Shown in pieces: positions 1 through 20,561 of a stretch of 64,000 nucleotides of DNA. The DNA is taken from positions 1 to 64,000 of IMG/VR virus record IMGVR_UViG_3300025133_000072, one strand, 5' to 3'. Source of the stretch: a virus. The notes under the pieces were generated by a model, which was not told where the DNA came from, did no database searches, and saw nothing but the letters and a program-made list of their open reading frames with translations. The first letter of the stretch is position 1. Each line of letters starts with the position of its first letter. The translations under genes and the position numbers were made by a program.

Positions 1-52
1 TGCAATTGCGAGATGTAATTGTCGCCGGGACATCTCGGATATAGGAGAAGAT

Positions 53-220
53 ATGAAAGCAATTGAAAAACTAAGAAAATCTAGAGCAAAGACTAACGAG
101 GGCAATTCGTTATCTGATGTCGATAAAAAAATAAAGGACTGGGATGCCAATGCCTTGGCGGGGTACGCCCGTAAAATAGGTATAGACGATGAGGTTGTCG
201 ATCCATTAGTTAAAAACTAG
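53..220 (+). CDS. small hypothetical protein (55 aa, MKAIEKLRKSRAKTNEG...)
   Basis: AGGAG Shine-Dalgarno, ATG at 53, open frame to TAG at 218-220; too short for the ORF track. Confidence 0.55.
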   Translation: MKAIEKLRKSRAKTNEGNSLSDVDKKIKDWDANALAGYARKIGIDDEVVDPLVKN

Positions 221-253
221 AAGAGGCTGATAGCCCTACTTGCTATATTTAAA
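212..253 (+). repeat. 42-bp direct repeat, copy 1
   Basis: AAAAACTAGAAGAGGCTGATAGCCCTACTTGCTATATTTAAA, identical to 564-605. Confidence 0.9.
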
Positions 254-563: not shown

Positions 564-605
564 AAAAACTAGAAGAGGCTGATAGCCCTACTTGCTATAT
601 TTAAA
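564..605 (+). repeat. 42-bp direct repeat, copy 2; extends into a CCCTACTTG/CAAGTAGGG hairpin
   Basis: exact match to 212-253; downstream CAAGTAGGG is the reverse complement of CCCTACTTG. Confidence 0.9.
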
Positions 606-2407: not shown

Positions 2408-3433
2408 ATGGCGTACAAGGATAAAGCTAATATTTCATGGATACGGAAAGATGCTGTTGCTGATCGTGTTGTTGGGTCTACAGACGCTCAACTAGGACAA
2501 GGATCAGGACTTACTCCAGATACTTCTACCAGTCCCCCTAACAGGTTAGCTGAGGAACTGTATGACAATATCGAGTCAGTTAAAGGTATAGCTGAAGCAG
2601 ATGGTACGTTTAAGTCGTTAACTGATACTCCAGCCTCTGTACCTGACGGACAATTCCTCTTAGGTAACGCATCTAATGCGTTAGTATTCTCAGGGGCTCC
2701 AGGAACTGCATTCAATAAAGCCTTCACTACTTCAGGTGGGGATAATGGAACGTCTACTGACGTAGCTCGTGGTAATCACAAACATGACAGTCTGTATTAT
2801 ACGGAGTCTGAAGTAGACAATTTACTGGCAGGTGTTGGATGTTTGAATCTAGGAAACGTGTATGAGAAAACCTTATCTGGATCAGGTCGTGATGCTAATC
2901 CTAACTCTGGGACGCACTTAACTTCTGACATACTTAAGGTAGGATCAAATTTAGGATCAGTAGGATCTATAAGTCCAGCTTTTAGTCTCAGAATTAAAAT
3001 GATACATACTGTTATTGCTAATTTAGTAGGATCTGGTACTGGTACGTATTTCTCGTCTACACGAGCTGACTACCTTATAACGCTCTATGCAAGATGGTTC
3101 TCCACTACTCAGTATCACTGGGCTATGCACACGTCAGTCCTTGAGTATACATCAAGTAGTGGCTACGCAGGGGCTGGAGTCGTGCCTATGACTACATTAG
3201 TATATGCAGTACAGAAGATTACTGGTACTCGAAGTCTCACTTCATATAGTGGACTTACTGGTGAGGACGCCTATGCTCTGTTCCCTTTTAATGATATTGA
3301 CTACTTCATAGTTGAGTTTAACGGAAAAGGAGGGGAGCCAGGATCATCTACTATCGTTGATAGAGAATTTGCTAAAATTAAAATAGAGGTCTTTCAGGAT
3401 TTCGACGATCCACAACCTATTACAGTATTATAA
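2408..3433 (+). CDS. tail fibre protein, paralog A
   Basis: Gly/Ser/Thr-rich; VARGNHKHDSLYYTESEVDNLL fibre motif; N-terminal ~140 aa homologous to 5477..6487. Confidence 0.75.
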   Translation: MAYKDKANISWIRKDAVADRVVGSTDAQLGQGSGLTPDTSTSPPNRLAEELYDNIESVKGIAEADGTFKSLTDTPASVPDGQFLLGNASNALVFSGAPGTAFNKAFTTSGGDNGTSTDVARGNHKHDSLYYTESEVDNLLAGVGCLNLGNVYEKTLSGSGRDANPNSGTHLTSDILKVGSNLGSVGSISPAFSLRIKMIHTVIANLVGSGTGTYFSSTRADYLITLYARWFSTTQYHWAMHTSVLEYTSSSGYAGAGVVPMTTLVYAVQKITGTRSLTSYSGLTGEDAYALFPFNDIDYFIVEFNGKGGEPGSSTIVDREFAKIKIEVFQDFDDPQPITVL

Positions 3434-3436
3434 ACT

Positions 3437-3499
3437 ATGGCTTATAAAACAAAATCACAAATATCATGGTTAAGAGCAGTGGCTCTGAGTCCTCAATAA
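3437..3499 (+). pseudogene. truncated remnant of a third tail fibre paralog (MAYKTKSQISWLRAVALSPQ*)
   Basis: first 13 codons match MAYKDKANISWIR (2408) and resemble MAFKEKTAVRWV (5477); similarity then ends and the frame stops. Confidence 0.7.
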
Positions 3500-3613
3500 A
3501 AGGAATGACAGATACCGAAATTATCGGATCATTAAGACATGTGAGTAAACATATAAAATGAAATCATGAATGATGTAGCACTTGATATAGATGAACTATG
3601 GGAGGAGGAGGCA

Positions 3614-4486
3614 ATGGCGTCTCCCACGCAGAAGAAAATAGGAATTATCGACGACAATGAAGGGGAGATTCGTTTACTGAAAGACACTCTTCAAGAAATA
3701 TCCCTTCTAGATCTTCGGTTCGTTCCTTTCACAGACCCGCACAAAGCTATCAAACATATTGATGAGAAGAATGGGTATGATCTAATCTACATTGATTACA
3801 ATCTAAACAGTACCATGAATGGGCTGGATGTTTTCCACAAGCTCCGGGAGATCAACATTGCTTGCCCTATTGTCATTCTCTCTATTTCGGAGGATGTCAT
3901 CAACAAATTAAAAGGACTCAAAGGAGTCCGGGCAATTTCTAAAATCGATTATACTGATGACTGCCACAAAACCCGACTGTGTGAAATGACAGAGGGACTC
4001 ATTGAAAAATACGATATAACAACAGGTATTTCCTGTGTCCGTCACTCAGTAGACAAACTTGAGCTTTTCCAGGGCGTTCTAAAACATGATCTGGATAAGT
4101 TAAAAACTATTCTGGAAGGTATAACGAATTCAATGCTGACCAAGGGAGATTTAGTTTCGATCACTCAAGCTATTTCAGAAAGAGTTCGTAAAGATTTCTC
4201 TGCAATGGGGGATGGGGATACAGATTTAACAACGATGATTAAAAACCAAAAAAGGCCCCCTGCTCAATTACTCAGAATGGGGCTTCAGATCTGGAAAGAA
4301 GATCCTACTTGGGGAATCTTTGCTAAGATCTTAGAAAAGGTTTTTAGTATCGGAATAAAGATGTTCGTCTTGATTGTTGTTCTTTTAGGGCTTTTGATCG
4401 TCCTGGTTACTCAGCGTCCTAATCTTGGCAAAATGGCTGAGTCTTTGACCTCAGTGACCGCAACACAGGTAAAACCCAGCCGTTAA
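3614..4486 (+). CDS. response-regulator receiver (REC) domain + helical linker + C-terminal transmembrane helix
   Basis: IGIIDD, YDLIYIDYNL..MNGLDV, PIVILS and ISK match the REC signature; TM segment MFVLIVVLLGLLIVLV; strong GGAGGAGG RBS favours the ATG at 3614 over 3566. Confidence 0.8.
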   Translation: MASPTQKKIGIIDDNEGEIRLLKDTLQEISLLDLRFVPFTDPHKAIKHIDEKNGYDLIYIDYNLNSTMNGLDVFHKLREINIACPIVILSISEDVINKLKGLKGVRAISKIDYTDDCHKTRLCEMTEGLIEKYDITTGISCVRHSVDKLELFQGVLKHDLDKLKTILEGITNSMLTKGDLVSITQAISERVRKDFSAMGDGDTDLTTMIKNQKRPPAQLLRMGLQIWKEDPTWGIFAKILEKVFSIGIKMFVLIVVLLGLLIVLVTQRPNLGKMAESLTSVTATQVKPSR

Positions 4487-4529: not shown

Positions 4530-4883
4530 ATGTCCATACTATCCGATCTGCAACAAGCCCTTTTAGAAGATGCTCCTGGTTTTGAAGACATTTCTGAACC
4601 CGCTATAAGAAAGTGGATGCAGTCTTTCTACAAGATCTTAGCTCCTGCTGGATTCCGTCCTCATGATTTTGTTTATAATGACAAAAACATCCCTTATGTG
4701 GAGGCTACGATTGTTGGAGAACCTTCGGTCAAAGTGAAGATCTCTTTTAATCCCTCAACTACAAATACCACAATTGAGTACAAGATTGAGAATACAAGCA
4801 GGCATAAACAATCCAAGAACACGGATGTCGTGAAGGTTCTCAAGGCCATAACACTATTCAAAAAAACCATAGAAAGCATTTAG
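4530..4883 (+). CDS. hypothetical protein, possible internal head protein
   Basis: GAGGA RBS; own extended -10 (TGGTAGAAT at 4491); N-terminus MSILSDLQQALLE. Confidence 0.7.
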   Translation: MSILSDLQQALLEDAPGFEDISEPAIRKWMQSFYKILAPAGFRPHDFVYNDKNIPYVEATIVGEPSVKVKISFNPSTTNTTIEYKIENTSRHKQSKNTDVVKVLKAITLFKKTIESI

Positions 4884-4947: not shown

Positions 4948-5469
4948 ATGCTTATCGTGCAAAAACTTCAAGAGGCTCTCAAAGAGGCTCGTAGAGTTCA
5001 GAGAATGAGCGGGGGCGGAGTCCCCGGCGTTATGGTTCCAACAGAGGAGCCCAGACTCTACTCTAATTCTGAAAGACGCAGACTTAATCGATCTCCCCTT
5101 AAATTAGCTTTGGCTGAAGCTCCTTGGTTAGATGATTTCATTTCTCCTTTTAAAAAGAAGCTTCGCTGGAAAGATCCTTTAGTCTCCATGGAAGTGAAAT
5201 TAGATGTGGACGACCGCATTTTAGGAACAGGGGAACTTTCCATAATCTTCGAAGAGAAAGAAAGAACCATTGAAATCTCCATGAATCTATTTGACATAGA
5301 ACTCACTTATGGAGAAGAAGAAATCGAAGATATGGGCCGGGAACGCTCTGCGTTTCTCCGGGTGGAAAACAGCAAGGGCTTTGTTATTTTTGACAAGGAC
5401 ATAGGCCCGATTCACATGCCCCTTCTTTTATACAAAAAAGTCTTGGACGGGCTCAACCAAATCAAGTAG
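4948..5469 (+). CDS. hypothetical protein, possible internal head protein
   Basis: AGGA RBS; upstream TTGAGA...TGTTATCAT promoter-like sequence; N-terminus MLIVQKLQEALKE. Confidence 0.7.
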   Translation: MLIVQKLQEALKEARRVQRMSGGGVPGVMVPTEEPRLYSNSERRRLNRSPLKLALAEAPWLDDFISPFKKKLRWKDPLVSMEVKLDVDDRILGTGELSIIFEEKERTIEISMNLFDIELTYGEEEIEDMGRERSAFLRVENSKGFVIFDKDIGPIHMPLLLYKKVLDGLNQIK

Positions 5470-5476
5470 GAACTAA

Positions 5477-6487
5477 ATGGCTTTCAAAGAAAAAACAGCA
5501 GTTCGTTGGGTAGTCGATGGAGCGCCTGTACAGGGGTCTACAGTAGCAAACGATCCAGATTCCGCTAATTCTCCTGTTGGAGCTATGGGAGAGGATCTCT
5601 TTGAAAATACCAAAGCGAACAAAGACGAGATCTCTATTATCCAAGGCAGTCAAGTTTCTACTTGGGAGGGACTGATTGGTACTTCAGGAACTATTTCAGA
5701 CAATCAAGTTCCTGTTTCTTCTGGGAATGCTCTGGTTCTCACAGGAACTGGAACAGCTTTTAATAAGAATTTTGGAACTGGGTCTGGTGATGTGGCAGAG
5801 GGCGATTCTGTCTATACTCAGACGGAAGTAGATAATTTAATTTCCGGTGTAGGTACGGGATTTCCTGTAGATAATGTCTCTAGGGCCACATCTAACATTC
5901 AGAGCAGATTTATAAAAACGAGCGAGACAAATATAGAAATACCATTATTGACTATGACTTTAGCAGATGACTCTTCGGATTATTCAGAATATGGGCTTAG
6001 GTATTCTGTTATTCAAATTGTTCATCCGACGCAAGGAGCTGTATATAATGGTGGTCAATATTCTTTGTCGGTTGCATGGTCATTTCAATATATTGTGGTT
6101 CCTCAAAAGAGATATTCCAATGTGGTTGCTGATGGTACAGTACGATATACTATACTGCTAGAATATATGGCAGGAAGAGGTGAAACGGCCTTTAATGCGG
6201 GCGGAGACATTATTTTATACAATTCTTCTGGGGGGGCAATATGCAACATGAAAACGGTAAGCTCTGCGTTTGTTTTAGATATTGATGAAACTTACACCAT
6301 GAAGATGGGAACATCAATTCAATCAAATAGTTACGGTGGTTTTGCATCCACAACTTCAGTCACACAGTTATTAATTGCAGTAAGTTCATTTAAAATTACT
6401 TCTGGCAATACCTTGACGACAAATGTAGAAGAATTTTTAAGCAATGATATGAGTATCTTTCCCTTTAATTTGGTATGGTTAATATAA
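5477..6487 (+). CDS. tail fibre protein, paralog B
   Basis: shares NALV...GTAFNK.F...DVA.G...YT..EVDNL..GVG with 2408..3433; C-terminal half is unrelated. Confidence 0.75.
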   Translation: MAFKEKTAVRWVVDGAPVQGSTVANDPDSANSPVGAMGEDLFENTKANKDEISIIQGSQVSTWEGLIGTSGTISDNQVPVSSGNALVLTGTGTAFNKNFGTGSGDVAEGDSVYTQTEVDNLISGVGTGFPVDNVSRATSNIQSRFIKTSETNIEIPLLTMTLADDSSDYSEYGLRYSVIQIVHPTQGAVYNGGQYSLSVAWSFQYIVVPQKRYSNVVADGTVRYTILLEYMAGRGETAFNAGGDIILYNSSGGAICNMKTVSSAFVLDIDETYTMKMGTSIQSNSYGGFASTTSVTQLLIAVSSFKITSGNTLTTNVEEFLSNDMSIFPFNLVWLI

Positions 6488-6984: not shown

Positions 6985-7344
6985 TGCAACATTAACATGG
7001 ATAATAACACAACCCCTCCCGGTGGCACCCTTGATGAGGGGGAGCCATTTCCAATAGATCTTGGTTCCGTACCTGTGGGAAGTTCCATTTATCTGACGAT
7101 TCATATAAACGTGAACACTGAGGCACTTTCTATTCACAATAGGGACGATTTTTCTATACGACACGGACGGGCCAGAAACCCTCAACCAGGATTTGATAGA
7201 TGCTATGGAATAGATTGTGGTTTCTCGTCAGTCTTTTAGAGAATATTGGAAGTACAAGTCTTCTGAGGATGATGGTGTTTTGAATTGGCTATTAGGACTC
7301 TCTGCTGGATTGATTGCTTTGACCGGGTATGTAGTTTTAATGTG
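6971..7344 (+). pseudogene. frameshifted or degraded hypothetical gene(s)
   Basis: GGAG RBS then MALPNATLTW, which continues plausibly in another frame (DNNTTPPGGTLDEGEPFPIDLGSVP...); further fragments downstream. Confidence 0.4.
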
Positions 7345-7357
7345 ATACAATATCCTT

Positions 7358-8079
7358 ATGCCTCTCGGAGATAAAACAGACCAGATCCAAACCCTCATTG
7401 ATGGAATCCGAACAACGCATTCCGGTTATCTAACAGGACTTCCAGAACCTCCTGAAAAGGATTTCCTAGATAATCTTGAGACAGAAAAGGGATCTATTAA
7501 AACCACGGGTGAGGCTTTTATAACTGATGAGGCGGTCAATGCTCAGGCTCGAATGATTTCTAAGCTTACAGCTACTGATCGGATCATAGCTAAAGAAGGG
7601 ATCGCAGATACATCCTGCGCTAAATACAATCTCTTGAACCTGATCGATTCAGGGGCTTTTTTGGACAATATCATATCAACCTTAACAGGGATCGTTACCC
7701 AACAGGATTTGATAGATAATATTGAAAGCATCTTAGATGAGGCTCTGGAAAAACGAGGGAAAATTGATGAGGCTCAGACAGCTATCAACAACACCAAAAC
7801 CCTTTTGGACGATGCTACCAGTGTTCTGATGAATGCAGCCCTTGGCTCTGCTTTTGATCCTGCTTTAGTAAGCTGTCTGTCCAATTTCTTTCCGACCCTA
7901 TCTGCACAAAACCCTACCTTCCATTCATCTATGAACAATGCAAAGACCCTTCAGGATGAAGGGAAGACCTCTTCTGAGATTTTTGACAGCTTGATTACTT
8001 CGGGAAAAACCAGTAATAATATAGACACACGTCAAACAGATGTGGTGGATACGCTAAATACTTTAGCAGCTTCTTTCTA
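7358..8079 (+). CDS. hypothetical helical virion protein
   Basis: 240 aa; TGTGATACAAT extended -10 upstream; abuts the PAAR-like gene. Confidence 0.65.
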
Positions 8080-8376
8080 ATGCCAAAAATAGCTCATCTA
8101 AATGCAATCTGGGCCGGGGTCTGTGTGTGCCACAATCCCCCCATTCCTATGAGTGGCCCTATCATCACAGCTTCAACTGACTCCACTGTGAATAATCAGG
8201 GCATAGCTACAGTCTTTGACACTGTATCCGGAGGCTGTGGACACACAGGAATGATCATAACCGGATCTCTCGACATAGAGGTAAATGATAAATCAGTCGC
8301 TCTTGTCGGGGATGTAGTGACCGGATGTTGTCAAGGCACAATAGTTACAGGAAGTAATGACTCAGAGGGAAATTGA
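8080..8376 (+). CDS. PAAR-like baseplate spike-tip protein
   Basis: 98 aa; CxCH, repeated G.IITGS..V.VN...A.VGD.V, CGH metal ligands. Confidence 0.85.
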   Translation: MPKIAHLNAIWAGVCVCHNPPIPMSGPIITASTDSTVNNQGIATVFDTVSGGCGHTGMIITGSLDIEVNDKSVALVGDVVTGCCQGTIVTGSNDSEGN

Positions 8377-8452: not shown

Positions 8453-9304
8453 ATGCCTGATAAAAAACCTTTAGTTCTAGGCCCTGACGGGATAGAACAA
8501 CTCCAAAGCGGAGACGCCCTTTCTACAGGGACTTCTCCATACCTTTCCCAAGCGGATATCGTTAACAATCTGACAACGAATGATCCTCTCAAGCCTTTGT
8601 CGGCTGCTCAGGGAAAGCTCTTATTTGACACAGCAGAACAACTCGACTTTGAAAAAGTGGCTGACGAAGATGCCATGATCGTGGATGCTGCTGCTGTTTC
8701 AGACTCTACAAACAAGAGATATATCGTTTCCTCTAATTCAACTCAGAATGGAAACACCACAACATATCTCTGTACAGCAAATGTAGATCCTGGGGAAACT
8801 CTCTTCTCAAACAATACAGCCAAGTTCAATCTTCTCCAGACTCTGGATGTCCAGATATTGGAAACTGAGCTTTCTGCTGTTTTGACTTCGACTGCTACTA
8901 ATATCGCTTTGAATCTCTTGGGAGCAAAGACTCTCCAGGATCAGATCGATTCTATTGTAGGAGGCGGAGCAGGTGTAACCCCTAGAACAGAGCATATCGA
9001 AATCACTCAAGATGTATTAGATGACGGATATTTTCTTGTTGATTATATCCCTGTCAATTACCAGCATCCTTTGATATTTATGGATCAGGGGAGTGCTCAA
9101 ACAGGTAAAGATCAAGTTTCAGTAAAATCAGGAAGTCCTTCGATAGATTTCCAATTTGACTCTGTTGTGAAAAGGCGGTGTTACATTATGAATAAATCGG
9201 CTGATCATGACGGGAATAGCACTGTAGAACATTCAGGACTATCAGAATCATTTGTAGTAAATCAAGTCTTGTTAGTGTTCTTCATGCACACGGGACAGCA
9301 ATAA
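8453..9304 (+). CDS. fibre-like virion protein
   Basis: IVNNLTT.D..KPLSAAQGK.L fibre repeat (second degenerate copy ALNLLGAKTLQDQI); C-terminal domain shared with 9374..11041. Confidence 0.65.
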   Translation: MPDKKPLVLGPDGIEQLQSGDALSTGTSPYLSQADIVNNLTTNDPLKPLSAAQGKLLFDTAEQLDFEKVADEDAMIVDAAAVSDSTNKRYIVSSNSTQNGNTTTYLCTANVDPGETLFSNNTAKFNLLQTLDVQILETELSAVLTSTATNIALNLLGAKTLQDQIDSIVGGGAGVTPRTEHIEITQDVLDDGYFLVDYIPVNYQHPLIFMDQGSAQTGKDQVSVKSGSPSIDFQFDSVVKRRCYIMNKSADHDGNSTVEHSGLSESFVVNQVLLVFFMHTGQQ

Positions 9305-9373: not shown

Positions 9374-11041
9374 ATGAGCGGTTTAAAACCATCTTATTTT
9401 GAAGCGGGTACTGCTTCGGCTGCTATTACCTTTAGCGCCATTACCATTTCTGGAGGATCAATCTCCGGGATCACCGATCTTGCTGTTGCTGACGGAGGAA
9501 CAGGATCGAGTACGGCGGGGGGCGCTCGTACTGCACTTGGACTGGCTATCGGAACCAATGTCCAGGCTCAAAGCGCTGTTTTAGACGACTTGAATACCAC
9601 TGGGGCTGTAGGTGCTGATGGAGAAATCTTAGTAGGGACGGGTGCTGGGGCTATGGCTTGGGAGTCTGGCGCTACTGCAAGAACTTCTCTTGGACTGGCT
9701 ATCGGAACTAATGTTCAAGCTCAGGGGGATGTCCTTGATGACTTGAATACCACTGGGGCTGTAGGAGCTGACGGGGAGATTCTTGTCGGAACTGGAGCCG
9801 GGGCTATGGCTTGGGAGTCTGGAGCAACAGCTCGAACCTCCTTGGGCATTGCTATCGGAACTAATGTTCAAGCTCAGAGTGACGTGCTTGATGATCTCAA
9901 TACGACCGGAGCTGCTAGTGCTGATGGGGAATTTCTTGTTGCTACCGGAGCCGGGGCTATGGCTTGGGAGTCTGGAGCTACTGCAAGAACTTCTATAGGT
10001 CTTGGAACTGGGGACGATCCTACTTTCAATGACTTGACCGTAGCCGGAAATCTGATTGTTAGCGGAACCACTGTTACCCAGAATGTTTCTACTTACACCG
10101 TAGAAGATCCTCTGGTTAAGTTTGCTGATAACAATGGAGCTAATTCCGTTGATATTGGATTCTATGGAGAATATGTATCTGGATCTACCTTTTTTCGAGG
10201 TATGGTTTTTGATGCTTCAGATTCTACCAAAGTGAAATTCTTCAACGGATTGGATACAGAGCCCACTACATCTACGGACTTCACCAAAGCTTATACCAAG
10301 CCTGATATTGATGCCGATATTCTGGGGAATGCTGCTACAGCTACTACAGCTACTTCGGCTGGTTCAGCTACCAATGCGACTAACGCTACCAATGCTACCA
10401 ATTGGACTGGAGCTACTCTAAACAGTTCTGAGAATCAGTATGATCTCATTACTGGTGGAGGGTCTGGATTTGTTGCTTCTAATATTGGAACAGCAAATTC
10501 CTTGGTTATTCGTCCAGGTTCTGGAAATCTTGGCGGTTCTGCTGTTAATGACAACGAGATTTGTGGTCGTAATGGTGGGGATATCACTGGTATCGCCCTT
10601 TCCACAAATGAGGTTCTCGGAAGAGCGGGAAGTAACATAGCTGCTATTGCCATAGCATCTAATTCCGTTCTGGGTCGTCTCGGTGGAGACATTACTGATC
10701 TTACCGGGGCTGATTTTCGGGATTCCCTCGGAGTAGGTTTCCGAGCTAAGTCTTTCCGTCTCAGTTCTACTGATGTAGACACCAACGGATATATTGAACT
10801 TGACAGTGATTCTGTTATTGCCGGATCTGTCATGGTGTTCAAAGTCGGTGGGGGTATTCAAATCGGAGATACCATTGATGTGACGGGCCAAACCCCGGAT
10901 TTTGCGGTTGGGGATTCTAATGCCAATCGTCTTTATATCACTTCCAGTAAAGAAGCTGATGGAGATGCTGCTTATGCAACCCTTAGTGATGAATTTGCTG
11001 CGAATGATGATGTGATTGTTTTATATCAGGGCAACGCCTAA
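9374..11041 (+). CDS. long fibre protein with internal repeats
   Basis: LAVADGGTG...ARTALGL fibre motifs; three 51-aa repeats; ATNATN repeats; GGAGG RBS. Confidence 0.8.
   Translation: MSGLKPSYFEAGTASAAITFSAITISGGSISGITDLAVADGGTGSSTAGGARTALGLAIGTNVQAQSAVLDDLNTTGAVGADGEILVGTGAGAMAWESGATARTSLGLAIGTNVQAQGDVLDDLNTTGAVGADGEILVGTGAGAMAWESGATARTSLGIAIGTNVQAQSDVLDDLNTTGAASADGEFLVATGAGAMAWESGATARTSIGLGTGDDPTFNDLTVAGNLIVSGTTVTQNVSTYTVEDPLVKFADNNGANSVDIGFYGEYVSGSTFFRGMVFDASDSTKVKFFNGLDTEPTTSTDFTKAYTKPDIDADILGNAATATTATSAGSATNATNATNATNWTGATLNSSENQYDLITGGGSGFVASNIGTANSLVIRPGSGNLGGSAVNDNEICGRNGGDITGIALSTNEVLGRAGSNIAAIAIASNSVLGRLGGDITDLTGADFRDSLGVGFRAKSFRLSSTDVDTNGYIELDSDSVIAGSVMVFKVGGGIQIGDTIDVTGQTPDFAVGDSNANRLYITSSKEADGDAAYATLSDEFAANDDVIVLYQGNA
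9524..9982 (+). repeat. three tandem 153-bp (51-aa) intragenic repeats, plus the start of a fourth
   Basis: ART.LG.AIGTNVQAQ..VLDDLNTTGA..ADGE.LV.TGAGAMAWESGAT begins at 9524, 9677 and 9830; partial unit at 9983. Confidence 0.9.
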
Positions 11042-11063
11042 GAGTCTGTTTTAGAGCAATAAA

Positions 11064-11092
11064 GAGGGGGCTCTTCGGAGTCCCCTCATTTT
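11064..11092 (+). terminator. intrinsic terminator
   Basis: GAGGGGGCTC-TTCG-GAGTCCCCTC hairpin with cUUCGg loop, followed by ATTTT. Confidence 0.8.
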
Positions 11093-11118
11093 GCATAAGG
11101 GCATAATGAGGGTAGTAT

Positions 11119-11427
11119 ATGGTTAAACTTAAAACCAAATATCTTGATCAATTATATCCAGAACTCATTTACGGAGATGAATCTGACGGGGGTGTTACAG
11201 GCCGAGGTAATGGGGGCTCTGGAGGTTATTGTGGGTACGCTGCTAGAAACGCAGGATATCCGGACTGTGGGGGTGGTGCTGCTGGCTCTTTTGCAGGTGG
11301 AGGTACTGGAGGAGCTTCTGGTACTGGGATTGGCGGGATTGTTAGTTTCTCTGGGACTATTACTGGTCGTTTGATTGTCATTGACGGATCTAATGCTACG
11401 GACTTCCTAACACGATACAATTCCTAA
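11119..11427 (+). CDS. Gly-rich protein, short (internally deleted) paralog
   Basis: N-terminus (KLKTK..YGDESDG) and C-terminus (FSGTITGR...TRY) match the two longer downstream paralogs. Confidence 0.7.
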   Translation: MVKLKTKYLDQLYPELIYGDESDGGVTGRGNGGSGGYCGYAARNAGYPDCGGGAAGSFAGGGTGGASGTGIGGIVSFSGTITGRLIVIDGSNATDFLTRYNS

Positions 11428-11443
11428 ACTATAAAGGACCATA

Positions 11444-12910
11444 ATGAGCAAGATTAAAGTAAAAGAAATCGAAAACGTCCCCCCTTCTGACATGTATGGA
11501 ACAGGGTCAGACGGAGTAGTTACCACAGGATTTGGGAACACTAATCTGAATGCGACCACAATAGCAACAGACGGGACGGATTCCATTGATTCTGGAAAAA
11601 TCCACAGAGCTACCAGTGCGGTTACTATTAGTCATACTCTTACTATTGAACAGCAATCCGGCCTATCCCATTCTATAACAGGTTTTCCTACAACTTATGG
11701 ATCTCCCGGAATAGCTCCCTCTGCTGTTTTCCCTACAATTGGAACAGATAGTATCCCTTCCTTGGTTAGAGGAGGAGCTGATGATGCTGATTCTCCTGGG
11801 GGATGGGTTCAGATCCTTGCTGGGGGGGATGTAGCTATCAATGCTAATCTAGATGCTAAAGGAACTGCTACTGTAGGAACTGCTGGGGGTGGTGGCGGTG
11901 GTTTGCTCGTTATTGTGTCTGGTGGAGATATTTCAGGATCAGGCAACATAGACCTTTCTGGAGCCAATGGAGGATCTACTGGATCTGCTAAAGGTGGGGG
12001 AGGCGGTTATGCTGGAGGCTGGGGAGGCCATTCTGGATATGGCGGTTCCGGGGGAGGAGCAGGTTCTTCTGTTGATGCTTCTGGAACCGGAGGTTCTGGG
12101 GGTGGTGGTTTAGTATCTGGGAATGATGGCGGGGATATGTATTCTGCTGGAACTCTTGGAGCTGCTGGAGGAGGTTCCTTAGACAATACAGGTGGAGATG
12201 GTCACCCGAATGGAGATGGAGGAAATGGTGGAGCTGGAGGAGATCATCTGAGCTCTTACAAACCTATTCCCAAACAACTTCTTCAAGGAGCTATTCGAGC
12301 TGCTGTTGCTACTGCTGGTGCTGGAGGATCGGCTGGAACTGAGTCTAATACTGGAGGCACAGGAGGATCTGACGGAGGTGGCGGAGGTGGCGGAGCTTGG
12401 GCTACTGATGCTGTAAATGATGGTGGTGCTGGCGGAGATGCGGGTGCTGGAGGCGGTGGCGGTTCAGGATACGAAACAGGCGGAGGAACTTCCGGAGACG
12501 GAGGAGATGGAGGAGACGGGAATGCAGAACTTTACCCACAATTCGACGAATCACCCTGGAACGGACGACCAGGAGGACAAGGTGGAGGTGGCGGTGGAGG
12601 AGCCTGTAAAGGTAATTCCTATAATGGTGGTCTATCTAACGGAACAGGAGGTTCTGGGGGTTCAGGAGCTTCTGGAAATACTGCTAATTTGAATAATACT
12701 GGAGCAGGAGCAGGAGGAGATGGAGCAGACGGAGCTGCGGGAGACTCTAATGGAAATGGAGGAGCTGGCGGAGCCGGGGGAAATGGAGGAGGAGCGCCGG
12801 GATTGGTAATCTTTATTTGTACTACTTTTTCATATACCGGGACCATTACAGGTCGCTCTCTCATTTTGACTGGGGATGATGCCCGAAAGATAATTACTCG
12901 TTATGTCTAA
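11444..12910 (+). CDS. Gly-rich putative fibre/adhesin protein
   Basis: GGWVQILAGG...GGGGGLLVIV beta motifs and long GGxGGx tracts; virion gene context. Confidence 0.75.
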   Translation: MSKIKVKEIENVPPSDMYGTGSDGVVTTGFGNTNLNATTIATDGTDSIDSGKIHRATSAVTISHTLTIEQQSGLSHSITGFPTTYGSPGIAPSAVFPTIGTDSIPSLVRGGADDADSPGGWVQILAGGDVAINANLDAKGTATVGTAGGGGGGLLVIVSGGDISGSGNIDLSGANGGSTGSAKGGGGGYAGGWGGHSGYGGSGGGAGSSVDASGTGGSGGGGLVSGNDGGDMYSAGTLGAAGGGSLDNTGGDGHPNGDGGNGGAGGDHLSSYKPIPKQLLQGAIRAAVATAGAGGSAGTESNTGGTGGSDGGGGGGGAWATDAVNDGGAGGDAGAGGGGGSGYETGGGTSGDGGDGGDGNAELYPQFDESPWNGRPGGQGGGGGGGACKGNSYNGGLSNGTGGSGGSGASGNTANLNNTGAGAGGDGADGAAGDSNGNGGAGGAGGNGGGAPGLVIFICTTFSYTGTITGRSLILTGDDARKIITRYV

Positions 12911-15729: not shown

Positions 15730-16097
15730 TGTCCAATCCAAGATTTGCTATAGGGAGTGTTCCTGAATTTGATTGTGTTTTCAATGACGAGAGCACAGGA
15801 ACTTTCTTAGATCTCACTGGAATCGATACAGCTAAGTCCTACCTGTGTTTGTTGAGTTCTGACGGGACAACAGAATTCAAAGGATTATTGAACTCCTCTG
15901 CCGTGACAATGCCAGCGGATCTCATGGACGGAAACATCATTTTATTGACTAAGAATCTGACCAACTTCACGAACCTGGACGAAGCTGGGAAATGGACTAT
16001 TGGATTTCGTCTTGAGTATACTGCTGGGGCTGTGATCATTTCGGAACAGCATACAGAGTTTGCTGTCCAGGTCATTGTTGCTGTAGATTGTGCCTGA
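15729..16097 (+). CDS. beta-sandwich virion protein (BppU N-terminal-like)
   Basis: F.CVF.D..G...DLTG...DG.I...LDEAGKW...Y..G..IS...F.V pattern. Confidence 0.55.
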   Translation: MSNPRFAIGSVPEFDCVFNDESTGTFLDLTGIDTAKSYLCLLSSDGTTEFKGLLNSSAVTMPADLMDGNIILLTKNLTNFTNLDEAGKWTIGFRLEYTAGAVIISEQHTEFAVQVIVAVDCA

Positions 16098-16483
16098 TGG
16101 TATCTGTTAAACGCTGGCTCACTTACTCTCTCTATATTCTGGCTTTTGTTGGTCTATTTGTCCTCCTTCGAGGATTTCTTAAAAAAGAAGACTTTGACAA
16201 AATCCTCGGAGCATTGAAGAATAAAGAGAAGGATCTTCAAAAACAGATCCACAAGAAAGAAATAGAAGCAGCTAAGCTCCAAACCAAAAAAGAGATGATC
16301 AATCTTCAGTATGAGGATTTACAGGTCAACACAGTTCGACGTATTGAGGCGATTGAGGCTTCTCTAAGGGTCAAGGACCAAGAACTTGAGATATACTTCA
16401 AATCTGTACGAAACGGAGCCCTTTCTGGTAATTTCTCGGAGGCTCTGGTTCTTGCTAAGGCTAAACAAGTGGATGAGTTTTAA
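16097..16483 (+). CDS. putative inner-membrane spanin subunit
   Basis: N-terminal TM (WLTYSLYILAFVGLFVLL) followed by coiled coil; overlaps the downstream lipoprotein gene. Confidence 0.5.
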   Translation: MVSVKRWLTYSLYILAFVGLFVLLRGFLKKEDFDKILGALKNKEKDLQKQIHKKEIEAAKLQTKKEMINLQYEDLQVNTVRRIEAIEASLRVKDQELEIYFKSVRNGALSGNFSEALVLAKAKQVDEF

Positions 16484-16967
16484 ACTCTTTCTATTTCTCC
16501 TTCTTGTTTGCTCCTGCTCTTCTGTTGAATTCACAAACCTTCCCGAACCCTTCACAGCTTCTCGTGGAGACAAATCCAAAGAGTTCCCTGCTGGAGTGTT
16601 CATCGAGAAGAAGCAATGGGAATCTCATCTCCTGATAATCGTCTCTGACCAGGAAACAATAGCTCGTTTGAAATTGAGAAACGATGCCTTTGTGCAAAAG
16701 GAAAAAATCTACAAGGAAATTCTCCAGGGAAAAGATGAACTTTGGGAGCAGAAAAAGCAGATCGAAATCGAACAGAAACAGATAAGAGAAGATCTGAATG
16801 TTTTGTACGAAGAGAAGTTCCGGGTCAAAGACGAGATCATAGAAGTTTACAAGGAGAAAGAAAAAACCCTCCAGTATAAACTGAAGGGCTCCAGATTCCT
16901 TCAAAAGGTTTCGCTTGTAACCGGACTGTGGATCGGCTACAAAGTGTCTAAGATCTTAGACTTTTAG
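16473..16967 (+). CDS. putative lipoprotein, spanin-like
   Basis: MSFKLFLFLLLVCSC lipobox-like signal, coiled coil, hydrophobic C-terminus; start reassigned from 16386. Confidence 0.5.
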   Translation: MSFKLFLFLLLVCSCSSVEFTNLPEPFTASRGDKSKEFPAGVFIEKKQWESHLLIIVSDQETIARLKLRNDAFVQKEKIYKEILQGKDELWEQKKQIEIEQKQIREDLNVLYEEKFRVKDEIIEVYKEKEKTLQYKLKGSRFLQKVSLVTGLWIGYKVSKILDF

Positions 16968-20144: not shown

Positions 20145-20561
20145 ATGCTAAGTAGAATATCAGATTATTTTCTCCAGGGTGTGTTTGTTGGTTTGGGTGC
20201 TTCAGTCGTGGCTTTTTTAAGTTGGTCAGCTTTGAGGCAGCATGAGATTGAAACCGGGATCTTGTTTCAAATGAAAATGGAATCGCAGGCTATAAAAATG
20301 ACCTTGGAACATGTGGCTCAGGATGCCGGACATTTAAAAGGGAGACTCCAGGTATTGGAAGATCGGGAAATTGATAAATTTGTTAAGAAGATTCAGGAGC
20401 CTGAGTCAGAGAACGGAAGTAGTCTAGTTCCTGACGAACCTTATTCTGAAGAGGTTCCAATTCACGAGCCTCTCGACTACCACAAGCAGTACATGGAACA
20501 GAGTCCAATGCAGCGACTAGAGATCCAACAGATGCGCCTTCCACGGAAGACATCCCCTTGA
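20145..20561 (+). CDS. hypothetical membrane-anchored protein
   Basis: N-terminal TM (FLQGVFVGLGASVVAFLSW), coiled coil; TGATATACT upstream. Confidence 0.6.
   Translation: MLSRISDYFLQGVFVGLGASVVAFLSWSALRQHEIETGILFQMKMESQAIKMTLEHVAQDAGHLKGRLQVLEDREIDKFVKKIQEPESENGSSLVPDEPYSEEVPIHEPLDYHKQYMEQSPMQRLEIQQMRLPRKTSP

What the first reader, a model, noticed from the sequence alone, without database searches (positions are those of the whole stretch)
3614..4486. Orphan receiver domain fused to a holin-like coiled-coil/TM tail, among tail genes
Seen: an intact REC signature (acidic pair DD, phosphoacceptor D in IYIDYNL, Ser in VILS, Lys in ISK), then ~130 helical residues and one C-terminal TM helix. 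There is no DNA-binding output domain and no histidine kinase in the window. Established: REC domains are switched by Asp phosphorylation, and coiled-coil + single C-terminal TM is an architecture used by some holins. Inference: a phage membrane protein (holin, antiholin or exclusion factor) that reads host two-component phosphorylation, or acts as a phosphate sink. No other holin is obvious in this window.
Basis: partly seen in the sequence, partly recalled or inferred. Interest (0 to 1): 0.75.

Follow-up and report, generated by a model that had tools for sequence, protein, structure and literature searches.

The report
Membrane-tethered phospho-receiver in phage tail-fibre module
An uncultured marine phage encodes, between two tail-fibre genes, an intact bacterial-type phosphorylation "receiver" switch joined by a helical stalk to a strongly conserved membrane helix; the phage record holds no kinase, so host signalling may be read at the cell membrane, but nothing here shows that it is a holin.

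Summary
ORF 3566/3614-4486 (+) encodes a canonical receiver (REC) domain: Pfam PF00072 scores 39.9 bits against a cut-off of 30.2, and the AlphaFold2 REC model matches solved receivers at TM 0.8. The acidic pair, phospho-Asp, Ser and Lys are all present. About 115 poorly conserved, mostly helical residues follow, then one strong C-terminal membrane helix and a 24-residue stub. No output domain, histidine kinase or second REC is found in the 75.7-kb IMG/VR record (86% complete).

Among 1.84 billion representative proteins there is one relative, from a Tara Oceans contig (33% identity, same architecture). It keeps all five REC residues. The best-conserved part is the membrane helix plus stub (64%, against 40% for REC and 18% for the linker), so the helix is more than an anchor.

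Gene order is shared with the Tara contig: REC-TM, a 173/193-aa soluble protein, then a tail-fibre gene. In Tara, a second, Rcp1-like REC gene lies 2 nt upstream.

The holin reading is not supported here. No holin HMM matches, the protein is too large, and no endolysin lies nearby. A spanin-like pair sits 11.6 kb away.

I read it as a membrane-tethered receiver that acts through its membrane helix, with its role untested. Earlier notes of this scan describe REC+TM genes beside lysis genes in other phages.

The parts
3566..4486 (+). REC-TM gene, long form (306 aa, stop included). The first 16 residues are an acidic N-terminal extension.
   Evidence: ORF list. The extension aligns with the N-terminus of the Tara homolog, whose only possible ATG lies 2 nt after the upstream stop. 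Exact self-match P0001, 306 aa, in the protein collection.
3614..4486 (+).
   Evidence: Strong Shine-Dalgarno-like run directly upstream. Many genes of this phage have AGGAG-type sites. Which start is used is unresolved.
3632..4015 (+). Receiver (REC) domain, residues 23-150. D29/D30 at 3650-3655, phospho-acceptor D77 at 3794-3796, S106 at 3881-3883, K126 at 3941-3943.
   Evidence: Pfam PF00072 above cut-off; PDB phmmer; AlphaFold2 pLDDT 72-89 and Foldseek TM up to 0.84 to solved receivers; residues invariant in the homolog.
4016..4348 (+). Helical linker, residues 151-261: alpha5 runs on into a long helix, followed by further helices and an amphipathic juxtamembrane helix. Poorly conserved.
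   Evidence: AlphaFold2 secondary structure at low confidence; heptad-like signal only at about 155-190; identity to the homolog 18-20%; no PDB or profile match.
4349..4411 (+). Single transmembrane helix, residues 262-282.
   Evidence: Kyte-Doolittle mean 3.0; 65% identical to the homolog over residues 266-282, the best-conserved part of the protein.
4412..4483 (+). C-terminal stub of 24 residues, predicted periplasmic, with the conserved motif TQxPNLxKxxESLT.
   Evidence: Alignment with the homolog. The outside topology is inferred because the REC domain must be cytoplasmic to be phosphorylated.
3437..3499 (+). 20-codon remnant of a tail-fibre gene 5' end (MAYKTKSQISWLR...stop), just after fibre-A and upstream of the REC-TM gene. 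A recombination scar.
   Evidence: Translation and DNA alignment with the starts of fibre-A, fibre-B and the Tara fibre gene.
2408..3433 (+). Fibre-A (341 aa), upstream neighbour and paralog of fibre-B.
   Evidence: 38% identity over the N-terminal 145 residues with fibre-B, E 2e-16.
4530..4883 (+). 117-aa soluble ORF between the REC-TM gene and the 173-aa gene; absent from the Tara contig.
   Evidence: ORF list; no Pfam, PHROG or PADLOC match; Tara gene order.
4948..5469 (+). 173-aa soluble protein, a conserved neighbour of the REC-TM gene in both phages. Function unknown.
   Evidence: 35% identity, E 5e-30, with the 193-aa product just downstream of the Tara homolog; no Pfam, PHROG, PDB or cultured-phage match.
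5477..6487 (+). Fibre-B (336 aa), conserved downstream neighbour.
   Evidence: 58% identity over the first 60 residues with the 3'-cut ORF on the Tara contig; paralog of fibre-A.

Best explanation
The gene encodes a tail-anchored inner-membrane protein.

Layout: a cytoplasmic, phosphorylatable receiver domain whose last helix runs into a helical stalk. The stalk leads to one membrane helix and a short outside stub.

Input: the phage record holds no kinase, so the receiver would be phosphorylated by a host histidine kinase or by acetyl phosphate. In relatives it could sit in a small phage-borne relay, because the Tara relative has a second receiver gene coupled just upstream.

Output: phosphorylation would change receiver dimerisation or the register of the stalk. 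That would change how the strongly conserved membrane helix and stub associate, with each other or with a membrane partner. The output is therefore a protein contact in the membrane, not DNA binding.

Role: the gene lies in the late tail-fibre module. The role I favour is tuning an envelope event late in infection, most likely lysis timing (a holin or antiholin partner), to the host's signalling or energy state.

Shown: the REC fold and residues, the membrane helix, the conservation pattern, the gene order and the absence of a kinase. Inferred: the topology, the phosphodonor, the conformational coupling and the biological role.
For: - The REC domain is canonical and all five catalytic or switch residues are kept in both family members.
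- No output domain is found by Pfam, NCBIfam, PADLOC or PDB profile search.
- No HisKA, HATPase_c or second REC in the 75.7-kb record.
- Identity to the homolog by region: REC 40%, linker 18%, membrane helix 65%, helix plus stub core 64%. A plain anchor would keep hydrophobicity, not sequence.
- In the model, alpha5 runs straight into a long helix, residues 132-187 (low confidence after residue 150).
- The gene order REC-TM, 173/193-aa protein, fibre gene is kept at 33% protein identity, so the gene is a stable part of this module.
- In the Tara contig the gene starts 2 nt after the stop of an Rcp1-type REC gene.
- Published gene order in cultured Alteromonas phages V22, A5 and P24 places a CheY-like gene in the host-recognition module next to the tail fibre (PMC10579305). 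In the A5 record that gene lies among small membrane proteins, three genes upstream of the annotated endolysin with two genes between.
- Earlier notes of this scan describe REC+TM genes beside endolysins in other phages. These are leads only.
Against: - There is no lysis linkage in this window. The neighbours are soluble proteins and fibre genes. No endolysin or holin is recognisable anywhere in the record, so adjacency cannot be tested. The only spanin-like pair is 11.6 kb away.
- The family has only two sampled members, so the conservation statistics rest on one pairwise alignment.
- The tail model has low confidence (pLDDT 30-49).
- The position of the aromatic switch residue (K minus 3) is Ala here and Thr in the homolog, so the usual Y/F rotamer coupling is absent.
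- No expression data: no RNA run holds the stretch.
- The REC domains of the Alteromonas phages share nothing with this one beyond the fold.
Confidence: 0.4

Rival explanations
1. Membrane-tethered phosphate sink or decoy. The REC domain is held at the inner membrane next to host sensor kinases and drains or blocks one two-component pathway, for example an envelope-stress, phosphate or porin-regulating system. The conserved membrane helix docks onto the kinase's own transmembrane region.
For: Intact REC with no output domain and no phage kinase. Membrane location. A conserved membrane helix fits a specific intramembrane partner. Phage proteins that perturb host two-component systems are published (PIT4 of Pseudomonas phage LSL4, PMC10714779, seen, title and abstract only).
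Against: A sink needs neither a 110-residue stalk nor a conserved outside stub. The gene lies in the late structural module rather than among early host-takeover genes. The Tara relative carries a second REC directly upstream, which suggests a relay rather than a single decoy. The host and its kinases are unknown.
Confidence: 0.22
2. A function linked to the receptor-binding proteins: superinfection exclusion or receptor modulation. This would be a membrane protein co-inherited with the receptor-binding fibre genes that blocks entry of related phages or lowers receptor display, switched by phosphorylation.
For: The gene sits between two paralogous fibre genes, with a fibre-gene recombination scar just upstream. 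Linkage to the fibre-B gene is kept in the Tara contig. The outside stub is conserved. From general knowledge, not tested here: receptor-blocking or exclusion genes such as T5 llp and phi80/N15 cor lie next to receptor-binding or tail genes.
Against: No known exclusion protein carries a REC domain. The outside part is only about 24 residues. Linkage may reflect only module co-transfer, as argued for the Alteromonas phages (PMC10579305).
Confidence: 0.13
3. It is itself the holin. The membrane helices oligomerise into lethal holes, and the receiver gates the timing.
For: One membrane helix with conserved sequence. Late-module position. No other recognisable holin. T4 holin t also follows the tail-fibre genes (general knowledge).
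Against: No Pfam or PHROG holin match. 290-306 aa with about 260 cytoplasmic residues is unlike known holins. Not next to an endolysin or spanin. Other candidate small membrane proteins exist, for example 16097-16483, 20145-20561 and ORFs in L002.
Confidence: 0.07
4. The REC domain serves as a scaffold without phosphorylation. It acts only as a dimerisation or binding module, and the protein is a membrane-bound assembly factor, for example for the neighbouring fibre or the 173-aa protein.
For: Conserved linkage with the 173-aa protein and the fibre gene. No kinase in the phage. The aromatic switch position is not aromatic.
Against: All five phospho-chemistry residues are kept at 33% overall identity, which pseudo-receivers usually do not do. 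Tail-fibre assembly is not known to need the membrane.
Confidence: 0.1

Closest known systems
Single-domain response regulators that act by protein contact (CheY, DivK, CpdR, Spo0F; Pfam PF00072)
   Same: Canonical REC fold with the acidic pair, phospho-Asp, Ser/Thr and Lys. No DNA-binding or enzymatic output domain.
   Different: It carries about 155 extra residues that end in a membrane helix, so it is tethered to the membrane. It is phage-encoded, with no cognate kinase in the record.
CheY-like genes in the host-recognition module of marine Alteromonas phages V22 (gp30), A5 (gp11) and P24 (PMC10579305; PMC7289586)
   Same: A kinase-less REC gene of a marine phage lying beside tail-fibre genes and inherited with that module. 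In A5 it sits among small membrane proteins and three genes upstream of the endolysin, two genes between.
   Different: Those proteins are soluble and 147-149 aa. They share no sequence similarity with this one beyond the fold. The A5 neighbouring genes have no relatives here. No function has been tested in either case; they are annotated as class II auxiliary metabolic genes.
Membrane-anchored, lineage-specific response-regulator output domains (e.g. MetOD3 of methanogens; Galperin et al. 2018, PMC5847659)
   Same: A REC domain fused to a narrow-range, uncharacterised, membrane-anchored C-terminal region.
   Different: Those are cellular (archaeal) proteins. This family is known only from two phage-type contigs.
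Holins and antiholins (e.g. T4 T/RI, lambda S105/S107, N4 gp63/gp62)
   Same: A membrane protein with one membrane helix encoded in the late region. N4 gp63 is reported as a single-TM pinholin with a regulatory region next to the helix (PMC12642591). That paper's 'Receiver domain' is only a name, not a REC fold.
   Different: No HMM similarity to any holin family. About 260 cytoplasmic residues. Not adjacent to an endolysin. No lethality data.
REC plus coiled-coil proteins (Myxococcus FrzS, AglZ)
   Same: A REC domain followed by a helical extension. The FrzS receiver is among the Foldseek matches.
   Different: FrzS has a pseudo-receiver and a long uninterrupted coiled coil and is soluble. 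Here the heptad signal spans only about 35 residues and the protein ends in a membrane helix.

Membership tests
Response-regulator receiver domain (PF00072, CheY-like) | Profile match above the curated threshold | tested here: met
   39.9 bits against 30.2; 41.6 bits in the six-frame search; homolog 42.3 bits.
Response-regulator receiver domain (PF00072, CheY-like) | (beta-alpha)5 fold | tested here: met
   AlphaFold2 pLDDT 72-89 for residues 20-150 with five strands and five helices. Foldseek matches to solved receivers, TM (target) up to 0.84, rmsd 2.1-2.7 A.
Response-regulator receiver domain (PF00072, CheY-like) | Acidic pair, phospho-acceptor Asp, Thr/Ser and Lys | tested here: met
   D29 D30, D77, S106 and K126, placed by the PDB alignments and the model. 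Invariant in the homolog.
Response-regulator receiver domain (PF00072, CheY-like) | Actual Asp phosphorylation by a kinase or a small phosphodonor | not testable with these tools
   Needs Phos-tag or radiolabel assays.
Holin | Sequence membership in a described holin family | tested here: not met
   No holin family in Pfam at E up to 0.01 or in PHROGs; only REC families match. The tail alone has no relative except the Tara homolog among 1.84 billion representatives and no stand-alone form of 93-310 aa.
Holin | Small membrane protein with at least one membrane helix and a short charged C-terminus | tested here: inconclusive
   One membrane helix and a basic stub of net charge +3. But 290-306 aa with about 260 N-terminal soluble residues is well outside the usual size.
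Holin | Gene adjacent to endolysin or spanin genes | tested here: not met
   Neighbours are fibre genes and soluble 117-aa and 173-aa ORFs. The spanin-like pair is at 16097-16967. No endolysin is recognisable anywhere in the record, so the test is weak.
Holin | Lethal hole formation that releases the endolysin | not testable with these tools
   Needs expression and complementation assays.
CheY-like genes of Alteromonas phage host-recognition modules (V22 gp30 / A5 gp11) | Sequence relatedness to gp30/gp11 and their neighbours | tested here: not met
   BLASTP E 0.58 against A5 gp11. tblastn of A5 gp8-gp15 against this genome gives nothing below E 0.3.
CheY-like genes of Alteromonas phage host-recognition modules (V22 gp30 / A5 gp11) | Kinase-less REC gene placed beside tail-fibre genes of a marine phage | tested here: met
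   This window. A5 record and paper.
REC plus coiled-coil proteins (FrzS/AglZ type) | Long continuous coiled coil after the receiver | tested here: not met
   The crude heptad score is raised only over about residues 155-190. Gly and Pro breaks occur, including NPIP in the homolog.

The most novel reading that the evidence does not exclude
This is a phosphorylation-gated membrane switch of phages. A host (or phage-relayed) phospho-signal on Asp77 sets the association state of a conserved membrane helix. That in turn sets when the cell envelope is breached, or whether further phages can enter. Together with the REC+TM genes noted elsewhere in this scan, it would be one branch of an undescribed class of phage lysis or entry regulators that read two-component signalling.
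Probability: 0.25. Interest if true: 0.8.

Novelty: new variant of a known kind. Interest (0 to 1): 0.5.

Why it matters
Lysis timing and superinfection control in phages are known to depend on membrane proteins that sense energisation or incoming phage. No case is described in which a phage reads the host's His-Asp phosphorylation directly at the membrane.

Cultured marine phages carry untested 'CheY-like AMGs' in the same genomic neighbourhood. This protein adds a built-in membrane helix that evolves more slowly than the receiver itself, which points to where the output lies.

It also gives a simple, testable construct: wild type against D77A and D77E, and membrane-helix swaps. If the link to lysis or exclusion held, it would connect two large fields (two-component signalling and phage lysis) and explain a recurrent orphan gene class in viromes. 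If it is only a phosphate sink or a scaffold, it is a modest addition to the list of phage auxiliary genes.

Tried and rejected
**Searches for relatives that found nothing**
- tblastn of the protein, its REC part and the 173-aa neighbour against 50,697 GenBank phage records: nothing meaningful.
- IMG/VR scans with the protein, the Tara homolog, the conserved-motif DNA pattern, the 379-aa baseplate-like protein, the fibre N-terminus profile, the upstream Tara REC and the 173-aa profile: no relative.
- JGI metagenome scan with the profile: none. The motif-pattern scan found the Tara contig L004 plus one chance bacterial hit, L005.
- GTDB genome scans with the motif pattern and with the profile: none.
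- Word-indexed searches of 5.8 billion proteins with the protein, the full-length profile and the tail profile: only the protein itself and the Tara cluster.

**Structure**
- Single-sequence AlphaFold2 was uninformative (pLDDT 42.6). The two-sequence run resolved only the REC domain.
- A PDB profile search with the tail gave only coiled-coil noise.

**Lysis genes and defence systems**
- Pfam and PHROG scans of 76 further ORFs found no endolysin, holin or spanin family, and the listed matches include no capsid or portal family. 'No other holin' therefore carries no weight.
- PADLOC: no defence-system match.

**Reads and expression**
- No RNA holder was listed.
- Contigs of three other marine metagenome runs carry short identical pieces of the stretch at low depth. 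None joins across or skips the gene.

**Other**
- Promoter and terminator consensus scans were at shuffle level.
- No tRNA genes, so no host hint.
- The cREC of jumbo phages (NAD-linked divergent receiver, PMC7824862) was considered and set aside: this REC matches the classical profile and no NAD/ADP-ribose genes are nearby.
Full report
**1. What is there**

The window is the first 64 kb of a 75,720-base IMG/VR virus record, estimated 86% complete. Positions 1-16 kb form a co-oriented tail, baseplate and fibre module:
- a product matching PHROG 'tail fiber protein' phrog_4176, E 1.3e-7;
- a PAAR protein at 8080-8376;
- a Phage_fiber_rpt protein at 8453-9304;
- several glycine-rich fibre-like proteins.

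Replication and nucleotide-metabolism genes follow: SNF2, primase, family A polymerase, clamp loader, UvsX-like recombinase and ribonucleotide reductase.

The target ORF runs 3566-4486 on the + strand (306 aa).

**2. The receiver domain is real and looks active**

- Pfam Response_reg scores 39.9 bits against a cut-off of 30.2, and 41.6 bits in a six-frame search.
- phmmer against the PDB finds only receiver domains.
- With a two-sequence alignment, AlphaFold2 folds residues 20-150 at pLDDT 72-89 as five strands alternating with five helices.
- Foldseek then ranks the PmrA, CpxR, AdeR, VicR, PhoP and PorX receivers on top, with TM (target) up to 0.84 and rmsd 2.1-2.7 A.
- The acidic pair D29 D30, the phospho-acceptor D77, S106 and K126 sit where the model and alignments expect them.
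- NCBIfam gives only weak, non-specific matches spread over CtrA, NarL, RssB, OmpR, PorX, CheB and others. The receiver cannot be assigned to a subfamily or to a cognate host pathway.
- The aromatic switch position (K minus 3) is Ala.

**3. The rest of the protein**

In the model, helix alpha5 continues into a long helix (residues 132-187). Several more helices follow, all at pLDDT 30-49.

A crude heptad score is raised only over about residues 155-190, where the homolog has an NPIP break. 'Helical stalk' is therefore fair; 'coiled coil' is not established.

Residues 262-282 form a very hydrophobic helix with a Kyte-Doolittle mean of 3.0. Twenty-four residues follow.

The receiver must be cytoplasmic to be phosphorylated and there is no signal peptide. 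I therefore infer an N-in, C-out tail-anchored topology with the stub outside.

Nothing beyond the REC domain matches Pfam, PHROGs, NCBIfam, PADLOC or PDB profiles.

**4. Relatives**

A full HMMER scan of 1.84 billion representative proteins with the non-REC tail found one true relative, P0002 (313 aa, E 6.8e-10), plus a repeat-protein false positive. Word-indexed searches with the protein and with profiles added nothing.

P0002 and P0004 come from Tara Oceans and ENA assemblies. The two family members are 33% identical and share the whole architecture. All five REC residues are invariant.

Identity by region is REC 40%, linker 18%, juxtamembrane helix 20%, membrane helix 65%, and helix plus proximal stub 64%. 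The shared motif is GLLIVLxTQxPNLxKxxESLT.

A membrane segment that is more conserved than the catalytic domain argues that it makes specific contacts and is not a mere anchor. The caveat is that this rests on a single pairwise comparison.

**5. Genomic context of the relative**

A degenerate DNA pattern built from that motif found contig CEPZ01067613.1 (L004, 2,178 bases) in the metagenome collection. Its gene order is as follows.
- A 5'-cut ORF ends in the C-terminal half of another REC domain. Pfam gives 36 bits over profile positions 51-108. The best PDB matches are the Rcp1/RcpA and bacteriophytochrome single-domain regulators.
- Its stop is followed after 2 nt by the ATG of the REC-TM homolog.
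- Next comes a 193-aa protein that is 35% identical (E 5e-30) to the window's 173-aa product of 4948-5469.
- Last is the start of a fibre gene, 58% identical over 60 residues to fibre-B at 5477-6487.

The trio REC-TM, 173-aa protein and fibre-B is therefore conserved. The 117-aa ORF at 4530 is an addition in the window. The gene upstream differs: a second receiver in Tara, fibre-A in the window.

The two receivers are not recent paralogs.

No relative exists in 50,697 GenBank phage records, in IMG/VR, or in one genome each of 185,579 prokaryote species.

**6. Start codon**

The Tara gene has no ATG between its first codon and the receiver. Its N-terminus (MLNVLDEQILEE...) aligns with the window's extension from 3566 (MNDVALDIDELWEEE...).

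Against this, 3614 has much the better ribosome-binding site. I leave both starts open. The receiver is intact either way.

**7. Context in the window**

Fibre-A (2408-3433) and fibre-B (5477-6487) share their N-terminal 145 residues (38% identity, E 2e-16) and differ in the C-terminal parts.

Directly after fibre-A lies a 20-codon remnant of a third fibre-gene start at 3437-3499. The 132-base gap upstream of the REC-TM gene is thus a recombination scar in a shuffling receptor-binding locus.

The whole record has no HisKA, no HATPase_c and no second REC. About 14% of the genome is missing.

**8. Lysis genes**

Pfam and PHROG scans of the remaining 76 ORFs found no endolysin, holin or spanin family among the matches listed. 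No capsid or portal family was listed either.

This phage is too divergent for absence of a recognised holin to mean anything.

By architecture, 16097-16483 (N-terminal membrane helix plus coiled coil) and the overlapping 16473-16967 (lipoprotein signal with VCSC lipobox, coiled coil, hydrophobic C-terminus) look like a spanin-type envelope pair at the end of the late operon. That is 11.6 kb from the target.

The target's own neighbours are soluble and unassignable.

**9. How it most likely works**

Shown:
- a phosphorylation-competent receiver;
- a helical connection to one membrane helix;
- the highest conservation in that helix and the proximal stub;
- stable membership of the fibre module;
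- no kinase in the record.

Inferred:
- The protein is tail-anchored with the receiver in the cytoplasm.
- It takes phosphoryl groups from a host kinase or acetyl phosphate, or in relatives through a phage-encoded receiver or kinase.
- Phosphorylation-driven dimerisation or helix rearrangement is passed along the stalk and changes the association of the membrane helix with itself or a partner.

I favour tuning of a late envelope event, most likely lysis timing. There are three reasons. The gene is in the late region. The output element is intramembrane. And kinase-less REC genes recur next to lysis genes in other phages.

For that recurrence, the published gene order of Alteromonas phages V22, A5 and P24 puts a CheY-like gene in the host-recognition module (PMC10579305). 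In the A5 record the order is:
- the tail fibre;
- the fibre chaperone;
- a 122-aa coiled-coil protein;
- the CheY-like gene;
- a 158-aa protein with an N-terminal membrane helix;
- a 92-aa protein with two membrane helices;
- the endolysin.

Earlier notes of this scan describe REC+TM genes beside endolysins in several other uncultured phages. I used them as leads and did not check them.

My confidence in the general mechanism is about 0.4. For the lysis role specifically it is about 0.25.

**10. Rivals**

- A membrane-tethered phosphate sink or kinase decoy (0.22) fits the missing output and kinase. It explains the stalk, the stub and the late position less well.
- An exclusion or receptor-modulating factor linked to the receptor-binding genes (0.13) fits the conserved linkage to fibre genes and the outside stub. 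It has no precedent with a REC domain.
- A true holin (0.07) fails the sequence, size and adjacency tests.
- A phosphorylation-independent scaffold (0.10) is disfavoured because all phospho-chemistry residues are kept.

**11. Comparison with what is known, and verdict**

The protein is a member of the receiver-domain superfamily; every testable feature is met. It is not a member of any described holin family.

Functionally it is nearest to single-domain response regulators that act by protein contact. It differs in having a built-in membrane tether.

Membrane-anchored regulator outputs are recorded in archaea (MetOD3, PMC5847659). CheY-like genes beside phage tail fibres are published but uncharacterised. 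Full-text searches found no paper describing a phage REC fused to a membrane helix.

I rate it a new variant of a known kind, interest 0.5. The architecture and conservation pattern are clear and testable. The family is tiny, the context gives no lysis link here, and the same kind of protein has already been noted by this scan on other DNA.

Noticed in passing
window 3437-3499 (+): A 20-codon remnant of a tail-fibre gene start (MAYKTKSQISWLR...stop) lies directly after fibre-A. It is a scar of recombination or deletion in the fibre locus.
   Followed up: yes
window 2408-3433 and 5477-6487 (+): Two paralogous fibre genes share a 145-residue N-terminal part (38% identity) and have unrelated C-terminal parts. 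This is the pattern of alternative receptor-binding proteins on one anchor.
   Followed up: partly
L004 (CEPZ01067613.1) 3-245 (+): In the Tara relative, a second receiver domain of the Rcp1/bacteriophytochrome-regulator type ends 2 nt before the REC-TM start. It could be a stand-alone receiver or the C-terminus of a hybrid kinase; the contig is cut.
   Followed up: partly
window 16097-16483 and 16473-16967 (+): An overlapping gene pair at the end of the late operon. The first product has an N-terminal membrane helix plus coiled coil. The second has a lipoprotein signal (VCSC lipobox), a coiled coil and a hydrophobic C-terminus. The layout is spanin-like; no HMM match.
   Followed up: partly
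window 3566, 4530, 4948, 269, 17671(-); L004 248 and 1233: The short N-terminal L-x-x-L-x-E-E type leader noted earlier on unrelated small proteins also loosely fits the long-form N-terminus of the REC-TM protein, its Tara homolog and the Tara 193-aa protein.
   Followed up: partly
window 221-253 and 573-605 (+): A repeat of about 33 bases (AAGAGGCTGATAGCCCTACTTGCTATATTTAAA) lies upstream of the small gene at 269 and again in the gap before 795. The second copy completes a hairpin, CCCTACTTG...CAAGTAGGG.
   Followed up: no
window 7217-7345 (+): A 42-codon ORF (GTG start) with a C-terminal hydrophobic helix; it overlaps the end of the ORF 6997-7239 and runs through the gap before the gene that starts at 7358. 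It may be a small membrane protein or nothing.
   Followed up: no
whole record (window plus L002): No listed Pfam or PHROG match is a capsid, portal, sheath, endolysin or holin family, although replication genes are readily recognised. The virion and lysis modules of this lineage are very divergent.
   Followed up: partly
L006 (Alteromonas phage A5, OP481051) 10251-12365: The published 'CheY-like AMG' gp11 lies between a coiled-coil protein (gp10) and an N-terminal-TM coiled-coil protein (gp12). A two-TM 92-aa protein (gp13) and the endolysin (gp14) follow. That places it inside what looks like the lysis cassette.
   Followed up: partly
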